Assembly: GCF_003334765.1 (NCBI RefSeq)
Contig: NZ_QOWT01000002.1
Origin: Escherichia coli
GTDB lineage: Bacteria; Pseudomonadota; Gammaproteobacteria; Enterobacterales; Enterobacteriaceae
Strand: one strand, 5' to 3'
DNA length: 64,000 bases
Position 1 is the first letter of the stretch, and each line of letters starts with the position of its first letter. The notes beneath the pieces were generated by a model that saw nothing but the letters and a program-made list of their open reading frames with translations, was not told the origin of the DNA and did not search any database. Shown here one piece after another: positions 43,432 to 48,598 of the stretch. The position numbers and the translations under genes are program-made.

Positions 43432-44634
43432 ATGTCGAGTAAGTTAGTACTGGTTCTGAACTGCGGTAGTTCTTCACTGAAATTTGCCATCATCGATGCA
43501 GTAAATGGTGAAGAGTACCTTTCTGGTTTAGCCGAATGTTTCCACCTGCCCGAAGCACGTATCAAATGGAAAATGGACGGCAATAAACAGGAAGCGGCTT
43601 TAGGTGCAGGCGCCGCTCACAGCGAAGCGCTCAACTTTATCGTTAATACTATTCTGGCACAAAAACCAGAACTGTCTGCGCAGCTGACTGCTATCGGTCA
43701 CCGTATCGTACACGGCGGCGAAAAGTATACCAGCTCCGTAGTGATCGATGAGTCTGTTATTCAGGGTATCAAAGATGCAGCTTCTTTTGCACCGCTGCAC
43801 AACCCGGCTCACCTGATCGGTATCGAAGAAGCTCTGAAATCTTTCCCACAGCTGAAAGACAAAAACGTTGCTGTATTTGACACCGCGTTCCACCAGACTA
43901 TGCCGGAAGAGTCTTACCTCTACGCCCTGCCTTACAACCTGTACAAAGAGCACGGCATCCGTCGTTACGGCGCGCACGGCACCAGCCACTTCTATGTAAC
44001 CCAGGAAGCGGCAAAAATGCTGAACAAACCGGTAGAAGAACTGAACATCATCACCTGCCACCTGGGCAACGGTGGTTCCGTTTCTGCTATCCGCAACGGT
44101 AAATGCGTTGACACCTCTATGGGCCTGACCCCGCTGGAAGGTCTGGTCATGGGTACCCGTTCTGGTGATATCGATCCGGCGATCATCTTCCACCTGCACG
44201 ACACCCTGGGCATGAGCGTTGACGCAATCAACAAACTGCTGACCAAAGAGTCTGGCCTGCTGGGTCTGACCGAAGTGACCAGCGACTGCCGCTATGTTGA
44301 AGACAACTACGCGACGAAAGAAGACGCGAAGCGCGCAATGGACGTTTACTGCCACCGCCTGGCGAAATACATCGGTGCCTACACTGCGCTGATGGATGGT
44401 CGTCTGGACGCTGTTGTATTCACTGGTGGTATCGGTGAAAATGCCGCAATGGTTCGTGAACTGTCTCTGGGCAAACTGGGCGTGCTGGGCTTTGAAGTTG
44501 ATCATGAACGCAACCTGGCTGCACGTTTCGGCAAATCTGGTTTCATCAACAAAGAAGGTACCCGTCCTGCGGTGGTTATCCCAACCAACGAAGAACTGGT
44601 TATCGCGCAAGACGCGAGCCGCCTGACTGCCTGA
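43432..44634 (+). CDS. ackA: Acetate kinase
   Basis: 400-aa ORF recognised as AckA (starts [20 protein letters not shown]); followed by hairpin and pta. Confidence 0.97.
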
Positions 44635-44639
44635 TTTCA

Positions 44640-44669
44640 CACCGCCAGCTCAGCTGGCGGTGCTGTTTT
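44640..44669 (+). terminator. Hairpin in the ackA-pta intergenic region (partial terminator/attenuator)
   Basis: 10-bp stem CACCGCCAGC/GCTGGCGGTG followed by CTGTTTTG, 6 nt after the ackA stop. Confidence 0.6.
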
Positions 44670-44708
44670 GTAACCCGCCAAATCGGCGGTAACGAAAGAG
44701 GATAAACC

Positions 44709-46853
44709 GTGTCCCGTATTATTATGCTGATCCCTACCGGAACCAGCGTCGGTCTGACCAGCGTCAGCCTTGGCGTGATCCGTGCAATGGAACGCAAAGG
44801 CGTTCGTCTGAGCGTTTTCAAACCTATCGCTCAGCCGCGTACCGGTGGCGATGCGCCCGATCAGACTACGACTATCGTGCGTGCGAACTCTTCCACCACG
44901 ACGGCCGCTGAACCGCTGAAAATGAGCTACGTTGAAGGTCTGCTTTCCAGCAATCAGAAAGATGTGCTGATGGAAGAGATCGTCGCAAACTACCACGCTA
45001 ACACCAAAGACGCTGAAGTCGTTCTGGTTGAAGGTCTGGTCCCGACACGTAAGCACCAGTTTGCCCAGTCTCTGAACTACGAAATCGCTAAAACGCTGAA
45101 TGCGGAAATCGTCTTCGTTATGTCTCAGGGCACTGACACCCCGGAACAGCTGAAAGAGCGTATCGAACTGACCCGCAACAGCTTCGGCGGTGCCAAAAAC
45201 ACCAACATCACCGGCGTTATCGTTAACAAACTGAACGCACCGGTTGATGAACAGGGTCGTACTCGCCCGGATCTGTCCGAGATTTTCGACGACTCTTCCA
45301 AAGCTAAAGTAAACAATGTTGATCCGGCGAAGCTGCAAGAATCCAGCCCGCTGCCGGTTCTCGGCGCTGTGCCGTGGAGCTTTGACCTGATCGCGACTCG
45401 TGCGATCGATATGGCTCGCCACCTGAATGCGACCATCATCAACGAAGGCGACATCAATACTCGCCGCGTTAAATCCGTCACTTTCTGCGCACGCAGCATT
45501 CCGCACATGCTGGAGCACTTCCGTGCCGGTTCTCTGCTGGTGACTTCCGCAGACCGTCCTGACGTGCTGGTGGCCGCTTGCCTGGCAGCCATGAACGGCG
45601 TAGAAATCGGTGCCCTGCTGCTGACTGGCGGTTACGAAATGGACGCGCGCATTTCTAAACTGTGCGAACGTGCTTTCGCTACCGGCCTGCCGGTATTTAT
45701 GGTGAACACCAACACCTGGCAGACCTCTCTGAGCCTGCAGAGCTTCAACCTGGAAGTTCCGGTTGACGATCACGAACGTATCGAGAAAGTTCAGGAATAC
45801 GTTGCTAACTACATCAACGCTGACTGGATCGAATCTCTGACTGCCACTTCTGAGCGCAGCCGTCGTCTGTCTCCGCCTGCGTTCCGTTATCAGCTGACTG
45901 AACTTGCGCGCAAAGCGGGCAAACGTATCGTACTGCCGGAAGGTGACGAACCGCGTACCGTTAAAGCAGCCGCTATCTGTGCTGAACGTGGTATCGCAAC
46001 TTGCGTACTGCTGGGTAATCCGGCAGAGATCAACCGTGTTGCAGCGTCTCAGGGTGTAGAACTGGGTGCAGGGATTGAAATCGTTGATCCAGAAGTGGTT
46101 CGCGAAAGCTATGTTGGTCGTCTGGTCGAACTGCGTAAGAACAAAGGCATGACCGAAACCGTTGCCCGCGAACAGCTGGAAGACAACGTGGTGCTCGGTA
46201 CGCTGATGCTGGAACAGGATGAAGTTGATGGTCTGGTTTCCGGTGCTGTTCACACTACCGCAAACACCATCCGTCCGCCGCTGCAGCTGATCAAAACTGC
46301 ACCGGGCAGCTCCCTGGTATCTTCCGTGTTCTTCATGCTGCTGCCGGAACAGGTTTACGTTTACGGTGACTGTGCGATCAACCCGGATCCGACCGCTGAA
46401 CAGCTGGCAGAAATCGCGATTCAGTCCGCTGATTCCGCTGCGGCCTTCGGTATCGAACCGCGCGTTGCTATGCTCTCCTACTCCACCGGTACTTCTGGTG
46501 CAGGTAGCGACGTAGAAAAAGTTCGCGAAGCAACTCGTCTGGCGCAGGAAAAACGTCCTGACCTGATGATCGACGGTCCGCTGCAGTACGACGCTGCGGT
46601 AATGGCTGACGTTGCGAAATCCAAAGCGCCGAACTCTCCGGTTGCAGGTCGCGCTACCGTGTTCATCTTCCCGGATCTGAACACCGGTAACACCACCTAC
46701 AAAGCGGTACAGCGTTCTGCCGACCTGATCTCCATCGGGCCGATGCTGCAGGGTATGCGCAAGCCGGTTAACGACCTGTCCCGTGGCGCACTGGTTGACG
46801 ATATCGTCTACACCATCGCGCTGACTGCGATTCAGTCTGCACAGCAGCAGTAA
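44709..46853 (+). CDS. pta: Phosphate acetyltransferase
   Basis: 714-aa ORF, GTG start preceded by AAGAGG RBS; recognised as Pta; strong terminator downstream. Confidence 0.97.
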
Positions 46854-46863
46854 TCTCGTCATC

Positions 46864-46925
46864 ATCCGCAGCTTTGCGCTGCGGATATCTGAACCGGAAA
46901 TAATCACTATTTCCGGTTTTTTATT
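46864..46925 (+). terminator. pta terminator (tandem hairpins, second U-tailed)
   Basis: ATCCGCAGC-TTTG-GCTGCGGAT then CCGGAAATA-loop-TATTTCCGG followed by TTTTTT. Confidence 0.8.
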
Positions 46926-47042
46926 CTCTTAATTTGCATTAATCCTTTCTGATTATCTTGCTTAACTGCGCTGCATCAATGAATTGCGCCATCCCACTTT
47001 GCATACTTACCACTTTGTTTTGTGCAAGGGAATATTTGCGCT

Positions 47043-48563
47043 ATGTCCGCAATCACTGAATCCAAACCAACAAGAAGATGGGCAATGCCCGATACGTTGG
47101 TGATTATCTTTTTTGTTGCTATTTTAACCAGCCTTGCCACCTGGGTAGTTCCGGTGGGGATGTTTGACAGTCAGGAAGTGCAGTATCAGGTTGATGGTCA
47201 AACAAAAACACGCAAAGTCGTAGATCCACACTCATTTCGCATTCTGACTAACGAAGCAGGCGAACCTGAGTATCACCGCGTACAGCTGTTCACGACGGGC
47301 GATGAACGCCCGGGCCTGATGAACTTCCCGTTTGAAGGATTAACCTCAGGATCGAAATACGGGACAGCCGTTGGCATCATCATGTTTATGCTGGTGATTG
47401 GCGGCGCGTTTGGCATTGTGATGCGTACAGGAACCATTGATAACGGTATCCTGGCGCTTATTCGCCATACCCGCGGGAATGAAATTCTCTTTATTCCTGC
47501 GCTGTTTATTCTGTTTTCACTTGGCGGCGCGGTATTTGGTATGGGAGAAGAGGCCGTCGCCTTTGCCATTATCATCGCACCGCTAATGGTCCGGCTGGGC
47601 TATGACAGTATTACCACCGTCCTGGTGACCTATATTGCCACGCAAATCGGTTTTGCCAGTTCGTGGATGAACCCGTTTTGTGTGGTCGTTGCTCAGGGGA
47701 TTGCCGGCGTTCCGGTGCTTTCTGGCTCCGGGTTGCGCATCGTGGTGTGGGTTATCGCCACTCTGATTGGCCTGATCTTTACCATGGTGTACGCCTCACG
47801 AGTGAAAAAGAATCCTCTTCTGTCACGCGTGCATGAGTCCGACCGCTTCTTTCGTGAAAAGCAGGCTGATGTTGAACAACGTCCGTTTACCTTTGGTGAC
47901 TGGCTGGTATTGATTGTCCTGACCGCCGTAATGGTCTGGGTGATTTGGGGCGTGATCGTTAATGCCTGGTTTATTCCAGAAATTGCCAGCCAGTTCTTCA
48001 CCATGGGTCTGGTGATTGGCATCATCGGCGTTGTTTTCCGCCTTAACGGCATGACGGTTAATACCATGGCTTCATCCTTTACCGAAGGGGCGCGAATGAT
48101 GATCGCCCCTGCCCTGCTGGTGGGTTTCGCCAAAGGGATTTTGCTGCTGGTCGGTAATGGTGAAGCGGGTGATGCCAGCGTGTTAAATACCATCCTCAAC
48201 AGCATTGCCAATGCCATTAGCGGTCTGGACAACGCGGTCGCGGCCTGGTTTATGTTGCTCTTCCAGGCGGTATTTAATTTCTTCGTGACGTCCGGTTCTG
48301 GTCAGGCGGCGTTAACCATGCCGTTACTGGCACCGCTTGGCGATCTGGTCGGTGTTAACCGTCAGGTTACCGTGCTGGCGTTCCAGTTTGGTGATGGCTT
48401 CAGTCACATCATTTACCCAACCTCAGCGTCGTTAATGGCAACGCTCGGTGTGTGCAGGGTGGACTTCCGTAACTGGCTGAAGGTGGGCGCGACCCTACTT
48501 GGACTGCTGTTTATTATGTCCAGCGTCGTAGTGATCGGCGCTCAGTTGATGGGCTACCACTAA
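47043..48563 (+). CDS. yfcC: YfcC, predicted inner-membrane transporter
   Basis: 506-aa polytopic membrane protein starting MSAITESKP; ORF track begins 7 codons upstream. Confidence 0.88.
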   Translation: MSAITESKPTRRWAMPDTLVIIFFVAILTSLATWVVPVGMFDSQEVQYQVDGQTKTRKVVDPHSFRILTNEAGEPEYHRVQLFTTGDERPGLMNFPFEGLTSGSKYGTAVGIIMFMLVIGGAFGIVMRTGTIDNGILALIRHTRGNEILFIPALFILFSLGGAVFGMGEEAVAFAIIIAPLMVRLGYDSITTVLVTYIATQIGFASSWMNPFCVVVAQGIAGVPVLSGSGLRIVVWVIATLIGLIFTMVYASRVKKNPLLSRVHESDRFFREKQADVEQRPFTFGDWLVLIVLTAVMVWVIWGVIVNAWFIPEIASQFFTMGLVIGIIGVVFRLNGMTVNTMASSFTEGARMMIAPALLVGFAKGILLLVGNGEAGDASVLNTILNSIANAISGLDNAVAAWFMLLFQAVFNFFVTSGSGQAALTMPLLAPLGDLVGVNRQVTVLAFQFGDGFSHIIYPTSASLMATLGVCRVDFRNWLKVGATLLGLLFIMSSVVVIGAQLMGYH

Positions 48564-48572
48564 AAATGTTAA

Positions 48573-48598
48573 GAGCCGCAATTGCGGCTCTTTTTTCA
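48573..48598. terminator. Bidirectional terminator shared by convergent yfcC and yfcD
   Basis: GAGCCGCA-AT-TGCGGCTC stem followed by TTTTTT; the yfcD stop codon lies in the T-tract. Confidence 0.8.

What the first reader, a model, noticed from the sequence alone, without database searches (positions are those of the whole stretch)
44635..44708. ackA-pta spacer: U-tailed hairpin immediately after ackA followed by an independent pta RBS and GTG start
A 10-bp GC-rich stem plus CUGUUUUG sits 6 nt after the ackA stop, yet pta follows 40 nt later with a strong AAGAGG RBS and a GTG start. This arrangement is consistent with partial termination giving more ackA than pta mRNA, and with a separate pta promoter.
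Basis: partly seen in the sequence, partly recalled or inferred. Interest (0 to 1): 0.2.

Follow-up and report, generated by a model that had tools for sequence, protein, structure and literature searches.

The report
Conserved leaky terminator hairpin between ackA and pta
The 74-base gap between the E. coli K-12 acetate genes ackA and pta holds a real, strongly conserved terminator-like RNA hairpin right after the ackA stop codon; it is an ordinary kind of intra-operon element, most likely a leaky terminator that ribosomes finishing ackA can suppress, and the known pta promoter lies upstream of it, not after it.

Summary
The window matches E. coli K-12 MG1655 exactly here. ackA ends at 44634. 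A perfect 10-bp stem with 8 GC pairs (44640-44662, -18.9 kcal/mol) starts 5 nt later and is followed by CTGTTTTGT. pta starts with GTG at 44709, behind a moderate AAGAGG ribosome-binding site. The hairpin is not chance (0.04 comparable sites expected per shuffled 64 kb).

It is under strong selection:
- The stem and TGTTTT are identical in 21 Enterobacteriaceae species, where only 15% of ackA four-fold sites are invariant.
- It covaries across 39 Enterobacterales.
- Unrelated hairpin-plus-T-run elements sit at the same place in Vibrionaceae, Pasteurellaceae, Aeromonas and Orbales.
- It is always close to the ackA stop (median 9 nt, against 26 nt for the operon-end terminator).

The published pta start site (window 44449) lies inside ackA and upstream of the hairpin, so pta-specific transcripts must also read through it. 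One published Term-seq list has no 3' end here.

Best model: a leaky intrinsic terminator that translation of ackA can suppress, possibly also a 3' stabiliser. It is ordinary in kind and of low to moderate interest.

The parts
44414..44442 (+). Putative internal pta promoter P2, inside ackA: -35 TTGTAT (44414-44419), 17-nt spacer, -10 GAAAAT (44437-44442).
   Evidence: Inferred from the published start site 7 nt downstream of the -10. The T at position 6 of the -10 is a synonymous Asn site present only in E. coli and E. albertii; the other 19 Enterobacteriaceae have C. The consensus scan does not detect it.
44449..44449 (+). Published transcription start site assigned to pta. It is the A of the in-frame AUG for AckA Met340.
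   Evidence: Kim et al. 2012 Table S1: NC_000913.2 position 2412509, + strand, 79 reads, 5' UTR of 260 nt. The 51-nt string maps to window 44399-44449. Translation from 44449 gives a 61-codon ORF that ends at the ackA stop.
44632..44634 (+). ackA stop codon TGA.
44640..44662 (+). Hairpin 1: CACCGCCAGC / TCA / GCTGGCGGTG, 10 bp, -18.9 kcal/mol, starting 5 nt after the stop codon.
   Evidence: The stem is identical in 21 Enterobacteriaceae while the loop varies. Across 39 Enterobacterales, 4 of the 10 core pairs show changes on both sides and 5 never vary. Two sampled E. coli variants differ only in loops and linker.
44663..44671 (+). Interrupted U-rich tract CTGTTTTGT. It also contains GU|UUU, which fits the RNase E cleavage motif as I recall it.
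   Evidence: TGTTTT is invariant in 21 Enterobacteriaceae. T-runs follow the analogous hairpins in other orders. The RNase E motif match is from memory of the published consensus and was not tested.
44675..44689 (+). Hairpin 2: CCGCC / AAATC / GGCGG, -9.2 kcal/mol, between the U-tract and the pta ribosome-binding site.
   Evidence: Four of its 5 pairs show changes on both sides in Enterobacteriaceae, for example CCGTC/GACGG and GCGCC/GGCGC (other variants are visible).
44691..44701 (+). AACGAAAGAGG: an A-rich stretch plus the Shine-Dalgarno AAGAGG (44696-44701). It is predicted to pair with the U-tract in read-through RNA.
   Evidence: MFE and partition function: mean unpaired probability of the Shine-Dalgarno is 0.23 in wild type and about 0.59 when hairpin 2 or the U-tract is mutated in silico. 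The columns are almost invariant, so covariation is uninformative.
44709..46853 (+). pta CDS, GTG start, 714 aa.
   Evidence: The GTG start is conserved in Enterobacterales.
46891..46919 (+). Operon-end terminator of pta (12-bp stem plus T-run), used as an internal comparison.
   Evidence: It begins about 38 nt after the pta stop, and its sequence differs between genera.

Best explanation
Hairpin 1 plus its U-rich tail is a conserved intercistronic intrinsic (Rho-independent) terminator of deliberately limited efficiency.

Proposed mechanism:
- RNA polymerase coming from the ackA promoter, and in Escherichia also from the internal promoter at 44449, transcribes the hairpin and the interrupted U-tract. 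A fraction of transcripts ends there, and the rest continue into pta.
- pta is translated independently from its own ribosome-binding site and GTG.
- The hairpin begins only 5 nt after the ackA stop codon. A ribosome finishing ackA close behind the polymerase covers the 5' arm and suppresses termination. The element therefore terminates mainly when ackA translation lags or is absent.
- Any terminated or processed ackA RNA ends in a stable hairpin that should also protect it from 3' exonucleases.

Shown here: the structure, its conservation and covariation, its fixed position next to the stop codon, and the position of the published pta start site.

Inferred: that termination occurs in vivo, that it is partial, and that ribosomes gate it.
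For: 1. Anatomy: a 10-bp, 8-GC stem at -18.9 kcal/mol followed by CUGUUUUGU. It is far beyond chance.
2. Selection within the family: both arms and TGTTTT are invariant in 21 Enterobacteriaceae, while only 26 of 168 four-fold sites of ackA are invariant in the same species.
3. RNA-level pairing: compensatory changes at 4 of the 10 core pairs across 39 Enterobacterales, with essentially all cells of the core pairs forming standard pairs.
4. Functional rather than sequence conservation: unrelated stems followed by T-runs occupy the same place in Orbales, Aeromonas, Pasteurellaceae, Vibrionaceae and some Shewanella. 68 of 78 spacers have a hairpin plus at least 5 T in 8. A T-run is needed for intrinsic termination but not for a purely protective hairpin.
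5. Position: the hairpin is a median 9 nt (range 5-22) from the ackA stop, even in spacers of 150-215 nt. The operon-end terminator is a median 26 nt from the pta stop. The ackA distance is the shorter one in 61 of 62 loci and in all 7 taxon groups.
6. Published experiment: moving a stop codon to 5 bp upstream of terminator tR2 lowered its efficiency from about 90% to under 10%, and removing translation abolished that repression (Li et al. 2016, PMC4824070).
7. Leakiness is required: ackA-pta is described as one bicistronic mRNA (PMC6393394), and the mapped pta start site is upstream of the hairpin.
Against: - No 3' end is listed in the spacer in the curated Term-seq tables of Adams et al. 2021 for three growth conditions. 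Those tables also miss the pta terminator.
- ackA-pta is not among the operons with a 2-fold or greater difference in abundance and decay in Dar & Sorek 2018. The pair may have been filtered out before that test.
- The U-tract is interrupted by C and G at +1 and +3, so efficiency could be very low.
- SdhX represses ackA translation without a significant change in Pta (PMC6393394, PMC9438474). A strictly ribosome-gated terminator would predict some polarity on pta.
- Short stop-to-hairpin distances also occur at ordinary gene-end terminators, for example 48571-48592, which is 7 nt after the stop of the upstream ORF. The short distance is therefore not diagnostic on its own.
Confidence: 0.55

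Rival explanations
1. The hairpin is mainly an RNA-stability element. The bicistronic RNA is cut by RNase E in the single-stranded GU|UUU between the two hairpins. Hairpin 1 then protects the ackA segment from 3' exonucleases, and hairpin 2 forms a 5'-proximal stem that protects the pta segment. This gives the two genes independent mRNA half-lives.
For: - Two stable, covarying hairpins flank a conserved U-rich single-stranded stretch.
- Protective 3' hairpins inside E. coli operons are common (Dar & Sorek 2018, PMC5927463).
- This would fit SdhX lowering AckA without changing Pta.
Against: - Dar & Sorek state that their protective hairpins are not followed by a U-tract. Here a T-run is conserved even across lineages with unrelated stems.
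- ackA-pta is not in their list of differentially decaying operons.
- No processing site has been mapped here in anything I could access.
Confidence: 0.25
2. The hairpin is an effective terminator that separates two transcription units, and pta relies on its own promoter located after, or independent of, the hairpin.
For: [quoted passage not shown]
- The hairpin is more stable than the pta operon-end terminator.
Against: - The mapped pta start site is at 44449, upstream of the hairpin.
- Only 38 nt lie between the U-tract and the GTG, and no promoter-like site is found there.
- The -10 of that promoter is Escherichia-specific, while the hairpin is conserved order-wide.
- The operon is described as bicistronic.
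Confidence: 0.05
3. The spacer is chiefly a translational control module for pta. In read-through RNA the U-tract pairs with the A-rich stretch overlapping the Shine-Dalgarno, stacked on hairpin 2. This throttles pta translation initiation.
For: - In silico, the Shine-Dalgarno is mostly paired (mean unpaired probability 0.23). It opens to about 0.59 when hairpin 2 or the U-tract is mutated.
- The same helix appears in longer RNA contexts.
- Hairpin 2 covaries.
Against: - The U:A helix is weak (A-U and G-U pairs), and its columns barely vary, so covariation neither supports nor rejects it.
- In Cedecea and Enterobacter sp. Ag1 the U-tract instead pairs with GAAAAC upstream of a free Shine-Dalgarno.
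- A-rich sequence next to a ribosome-binding site is generic.
Confidence: 0.12
4. The 23-bp perfect palindrome is a DNA operator for a dimeric regulator, or a repeated palindromic element of the REP type.
For: The palindrome is perfect and its sequence is invariant within Enterobacteriaceae.
Against: - Loop length, and so half-site spacing, varies from 3 to 6 nt between species while the arms stay fixed.
- Changes are compensatory and pass through G-U intermediates, which only make sense in RNA.
- There is a single copy per genome.
- Rfam gives no match.
Confidence: 0.03

Closest known systems
Intra-operon (partial) Rho-independent terminators that set unequal mRNA levels within an operon
   Same: A GC-rich stem-loop plus U-rich tail between two co-transcribed genes. 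Read-through is required for expression of the downstream gene, which has its own ribosome-binding site.
   Different: Termination at this site has not been demonstrated. The U-tract is interrupted. One accessible Term-seq list shows no 3' end.
Ribosome-repressed terminators close to a stop codon (Li et al. 2016, NAR, terminator tR2; the pyrBI attenuator of Roland et al., cited there)
   Same: The stop-to-hairpin distance is 5 nt, the same as the construct in which tR2 efficiency fell from about 90% to under 10%. The distance is short in every lineage examined.
   Different: Those are engineered constructs or leader-peptide systems. This one follows a full-length enzyme gene, and its dependence on translation is untested.
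Protective intercistronic hairpins that give differential operon decay (malEFG REP; Dar & Sorek 2018)
   Same: A stable, conserved hairpin immediately after the upstream gene of an operon.
   Different: Those hairpins lack a following U-tract. This one keeps a T-run across distant lineages, is single-copy and not a REP element, and ackA-pta is not in their regulated set.
Classical attenuators with alternative terminator and antiterminator folds (trp, his, pyrBI leaders)
   Same: A terminator hairpin whose action could depend on ribosome position.
   Different: No competing antiterminator structure is predicted; hairpin 1 pairs with probability about 1.0. Hairpin 2 lies downstream of the U-tract and cannot prevent termination. 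There is no leader peptide.

Membership tests
Rho-independent (intrinsic) terminator | A GC-rich stem-loop with a short loop. | tested here: met
   10 bp, 8 GC, 3-nt loop, -18.9 kcal/mol.
Rho-independent (intrinsic) terminator | An uninterrupted or nearly uninterrupted U-tract of about 7-9 nt directly after the stem. | tested here: inconclusive
   CUGUUUUGU has 6 U in 9, but C at +1 and G at +3. It passes the loose scan. The tract is more canonical in other orders.
Rho-independent (intrinsic) terminator | RNA 3' ends mapped in the U-tract in vivo or in vitro. | tested here: inconclusive
   The Adams 2021 Term-seq tables have no entry at MG1655 24146xx or 24147xx. The same tables lack the pta operon-end terminator.
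Rho-independent (intrinsic) terminator | The hairpin plus U-run is conserved at the orthologous position regardless of stem sequence. | tested here: met
   68 of 78 spacers across 7 taxon groups. Covariation is seen within Enterobacterales.
Ribosome-repressed terminator near a stop codon | The hairpin starts within about 15-20 nt of the stop codon of a translated ORF. | tested here: met
   5 nt in E. coli; median 9 nt, range 5-22 nt.
Ribosome-repressed terminator near a stop codon | Termination efficiency rises when upstream translation is removed or the distance is lengthened. | not testable with these tools
   This needs reporter or RNA measurements.
Protective 3' hairpin of a differentially decaying operon segment | [quoted passage not shown] | tested here: not met
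   ackA-pta is absent from Table S3 and S6 of Dar & Sorek 2018, and a T-run is present and conserved. Caveat: the pair may have been excluded by their filters.
Attenuator with alternative antiterminator fold | A mutually exclusive structure that can form before the terminator is completed. | tested here: not met
   The hairpin 1 arms have an unpaired probability of 0.00 in a 200-nt context, with no upstream competitor.
REP/BIME or other repeated palindromes | Many copies per genome. | tested here: not met
   One place per genome in 5424 E. coli genomes and one match in the window.
Any curated RNA family (Rfam 15) | A covariance-model match. | tested here: not met
   Only three chance-level snoRNA hits with E > 2, none in the spacer.

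The most novel reading that the evidence does not exclude
Hairpin 1 is a translation-gated terminator. In Escherichia, the internal promoter evolved through a synonymous Asn AAC-to-AAT change that creates its -10. That promoter starts transcription exactly at the A of the in-frame AUG for AckA Met340.

These pta-specific transcripts would then be leaderless mRNAs. Translating their 61-codon AckA tail would deliver a ribosome to the stop codon 5 nt before the hairpin and license read-through into pta. pta expression from its own promoter would depend on leaderless translation of an ackA fragment.

Separately, the unusual sequence invariance of hairpin 1, compared with the fast-evolving operon-end terminator, could reflect tight tuning of the AckA:Pta ratio and therefore of acetyl-phosphate.
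Probability: 0.1. Interest if true: 0.55.

Novelty: new member of a known kind. Interest (0 to 1): 0.27.

Why it matters
AckA and Pta make and consume acetyl-phosphate, a global signalling and acetyl or phosphoryl donor, so their ratio matters for the cell. The small RNA SdhX is known to repress ackA but not pta (PMC6393394, PMC9438474). How the two halves of one operon are uncoupled is not fully explained.

A conserved, leaky terminator hairpin that sits next to the stop codon, with the pta promoter upstream of it, is a concrete and testable piece of that uncoupling. The kind of element is well known, so the gain is local to this operon. For annotation, the spacer should not be read as a clean boundary between two transcription units.

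Tried and rejected
Literature:
No accessible paper describes this hairpin.
- Searching for the hairpin sequence itself found only knockout-primer listings.
- Not held: De Mets 2019 PNAS, Wolfe 2005, Lalanne 2018, Ju 2019, Thomason 2015.
- Supplements not held: Dar & Sorek NAR 2018, Conway 2014, BacTermFinder.
- The SMRT-Cappable-seq supplements do not mention ackA or pta.
- Klebsiella start-site rows for KPN_02687 and KPN_02688 were not in the stored part of the Kim 2012 table.

Computation:
- Rfam gave nothing.
- The consensus promoter scan found no + strand promoter in ackA or in the spacer, and it also misses the published P2.
- I looked for synonymous-site conservation that might mark an internal promoter. 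The P2 region is not conserved. The low-variation stretch at codons 266-290 has no obvious promoter and remains unexplained.

Considered and rejected:
- An antiterminator role for hairpin 2. It shares CCGCC/GGCGG with hairpin 1, but it lies downstream of the U-tract, and hairpin 1 is far more stable.
- A terminator on the minus strand. There is no T-run after either hairpin on the reverse complement (read).
- A DNA operator or REP element.

Full report
**What the locus is.** The window around the finding is identical to E. coli K-12 MG1655: 0 mismatches over 5,001 bases, where MG1655 coordinate = window coordinate + 2,370,038. ackA is 43432-44634 (400 aa) and pta is 44709-46853 (714 aa, GTG start). 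The finding's coordinates, 44635-44708, are exactly the 74-nt spacer between them.

**Check of the observation.** The sequence reads: TGA, then TTTCA, then CACCGCCAGC-TCA-GCTGGCGGTG (44640-44662), then CTGTTTTGT, then AAC, then CCGCC-AAATC-GGCGG (44675-44689), then TAACGA-AAGAGG (Shine-Dalgarno at 44696-44701), then ATAAACC, then GTG (44709).
- Hairpin 1 is a perfect 10-bp stem with 8 GC pairs, at -18.9 kcal/mol.
- The spacer folds better than all 200 shuffles, z = -3.9.
- With stringent criteria, only this site and one other (48571-48592) exist in the 64-kb window, against 0.04 expected per shuffled window.
The U-tract is interrupted. The ribosome-binding site is moderate (-5.8 against -12.5 kcal/mol for an ideal site). 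A second hairpin was overlooked.

**Comparative evidence.** With AckA as query I fetched 80 loci, one per species, from Enterobacterales, Orbales, Aeromonas, Pasteurellaceae, Vibrionaceae and Shewanellaceae.
- Gene order: ackA is directly followed by pta in 77 of the 80 loci, with spacers of 41-215 nt.
- Enterobacteriaceae, 21 species: both arms of hairpin 1 and TGTTTT are invariant, while the loop varies in sequence and length from 3 to 6 nt. In the same species only 26 of 168 four-fold degenerate sites of ackA are invariant. The constraint is therefore strong.
- Enterobacterales, 39 species: the hairpin is recognisably homologous as CCG(C/T)CAG(C/T/G)...(G/A/C)CTG(G/A)CGG. It evolves through G-U intermediates to full compensatory pairs. 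Four of the 10 core pairs show changes on both sides, 5 never vary, and the core pairs form standard pairs in essentially all cells.
- Other orders: the stem sequences are unrelated, but a hairpin followed by a T-run is again found directly after ackA, often with a more canonical run such as TTTTTTTT in Vibrio. In total, 68 of 78 spacers carry a hairpin of -8 kcal/mol or better with at least 5 T in 8.
- Exceptions: Yersinia thracica, two Rosenbergiella species, an endosymbiont-like MAG, Photodesmus, and three Shewanellaceae loci (two Shewanella and Parashewanella curva).
- E. coli population: 5,140 of 5,424 genomes are identical over the 80-nt spacer query. Two sampled variants differ only in the two loops and the 5-nt linker.

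**Position relative to the stop codon.** The hairpin stays next to the ackA stop even when the spacer is 150-215 nt long. Its median distance is 9 nt (range 5-22). In the same loci, the operon-end terminator is a median 26 nt from the pta stop. The ackA distance is the shorter one in 61 of 62 loci and in all seven taxon groups. The operon-end terminator also turns over in sequence between genera, whereas hairpin 1 does not.

**Hairpin 2 and the U:A helix.**
- Hairpin 2 shows changes on both sides at 4 of its 5 pairs in Enterobacteriaceae, so it is also a selected structure.
- RNAfold additionally pairs the U-tract with ACGAAAG(AG), which overlaps the Shine-Dalgarno.
- In silico, the Shine-Dalgarno unpaired probability is 0.23. 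It rises to about 0.59 if hairpin 2 or the U-tract is mutated.
- These columns hardly vary, so covariation cannot judge this helix. In Cedecea and Enterobacter sp. Ag1 the U-tract pairs with a different A-run and leaves the Shine-Dalgarno free.

**The pta promoter.**
- The literature says pta has its own promoter as well as the ackA promoter (PMC5670510).
- Kim et al. 2012 (PMC3415461, Table S1) list a start site assigned to pta at NC_000913.2 position 2412509, + strand, with 79 reads and a 260-nt 5' UTR. The two ackA start sites have 5 and 4 reads.
- The 51-nt string from that table maps to window 44399-44449. The start site is therefore inside ackA and 190 nt upstream of hairpin 1.
- A plausible promoter is TTGTAT, 17 nt, GAAAAT. 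The critical last T of the -10 is a synonymous site present only in E. coli and E. albertii. This promoter is probably young, while the hairpin is ancient.
The hairpin must be leaky for pta to be expressed at all.

**Evidence on termination in vivo.**
- The curated Term-seq tables of Adams et al. 2021 contain no 3' end between MG1655 2,414,600 and 2,414,799. They also lack the pta operon-end terminator, so sensitivity at this operon is limited.
- ackA-pta is in the operon list of Dar & Sorek 2018 but not among the differentially decaying pairs. Their filters remove pairs with an internal start site or a terminator-like 3' end, so this is uninformative.
- I found no accessible dataset that shows or excludes a 3' end at the hairpin.

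**Mechanism.** Li et al. 2016 (PMC4824070) showed that moving a stop codon to 5 bp before terminator tR2 lowers its efficiency from about 90% to under 10%. Deleting the upstream translation signals restores termination, and efficiency rises gradually to its maximum beyond about 30 bp.

The ackA stop is 5 nt from hairpin 1, and the distance is short in every lineage. The best-supported reading is therefore an intercistronic intrinsic terminator of limited efficiency:
- It is largely suppressed when ribosomes finish ackA close behind the polymerase.
- It becomes active when translation lags.
- It leaves a hairpin-protected 3' end on any terminated or processed ackA RNA.

Tensions with this reading:
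- No 3' end is listed in the one dataset I could read.
- SdhX represses AckA without a significant change in Pta.
- Short stop-to-hairpin distances also occur at ordinary gene ends.

The main rival is a pure stability role after RNase E cleavage in the U-rich linker. The conserved T-run argues against that being the whole story.

**Comparison with known elements and novelty.** The element works like known partial intra-operon terminators and like ribosome-repressed terminators near stop codons.
- It is not a classical attenuator, because there is no competing fold.
- It is not a REP element, because it is single-copy.
- It is not in Rfam.
- I found no paper that describes it, but the kind is ordinary, and E. 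coli K-12 is saturated with genome-wide data I could not access. I file it as a new member of a known kind, of low to moderate interest.

- the depth and strength of conservation;
- the fixed position next to the stop codon;
- the second hairpin;
- the pta promoter lying upstream of the hairpin;
- the published start site coinciding with the A of the in-frame AUG for AckA Met340. This would make those transcripts leaderless-type mRNAs whose 61-codon ORF ends 5 nt before the hairpin. That last idea is speculative.

Noticed in passing
window 44449 (TSS), 44449-44634 (ORF): The published pta start site (Kim 2012, 79 reads) is the A of the in-frame AUG for AckA Met340. Transcripts from it would begin 5'-AUG and encode the last 61 residues of AckA, ending at the ackA stop 5 nt before hairpin 1. 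This is a possible leaderless mRNA.
   Followed up: partly
window 44437-44442: The -10 hexamer GAAAAT of the internal pta promoter owes its last T to a synonymous Asn codon (AAT). That T is present only in E. coli and E. albertii; the other 19 Enterobacteriaceae have AAC. The promoter looks Escherichia-specific.
   Followed up: partly
window 43432-43470: The first 12 or so codons of ackA are almost invariant at the codon level across 21 Enterobacteriaceae (mean codon entropy 0.07 bits against 0.78 for the whole gene). This fits the translation-initiation region that the small RNA SdhX targets.
   Followed up: no
window 44227-44300 (ackA codons about 266-290): This stretch has reduced synonymous variation (codon entropy 0.26-0.4) with no obvious promoter or structure. 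It is unexplained.
   Followed up: partly
window about 43755, minus strand: Kim 2012 lists an antisense start site assigned to yfbV inside ackA (NC_000913.2 position 2411815, 33 reads). This matches the remark for Salmonella in PMC6393394 that a yfbV transcript overlaps ackA.
   Followed up: no
window 46891-46919, and the same position in L001-L080: The operon-end terminator of pta has many different stem sequences among 18 Enterobacteriaceae, whereas the hairpin 1 stem is identical in all 21. The internal hairpin is far more constrained than the terminal one.
   Followed up: partly
window 48571-48592, both strands: This is the only other stringent terminator-like site in the 64-kb window. It scores on both strands, so it may be bidirectional, and it starts 7 nt after the stop of the ORF 47022-48563 (yfcC).
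   Followed up: no
L018, L022, L027, L028, L032, L035, L038, L042 (spacer 3' parts): Non-Enterobacteriaceae Enterobacterales share a different conserved block upstream of pta, (T)AACGAGCAACCGT(A/T)AAGAGGTTT(AG)CCGTG. It is predicted to pair around the Shine-Dalgarno and the start codon, and it replaces hairpin 2.
   Followed up: no
L051, L054-L057, L060, L062, L065, L078, L080 (Vibrionaceae spacers of 106-164 nt): After the ackA-proximal hairpin, these long spacers carry a second large, stable stem-loop before pta. Its function is unknown.
   Followed up: no
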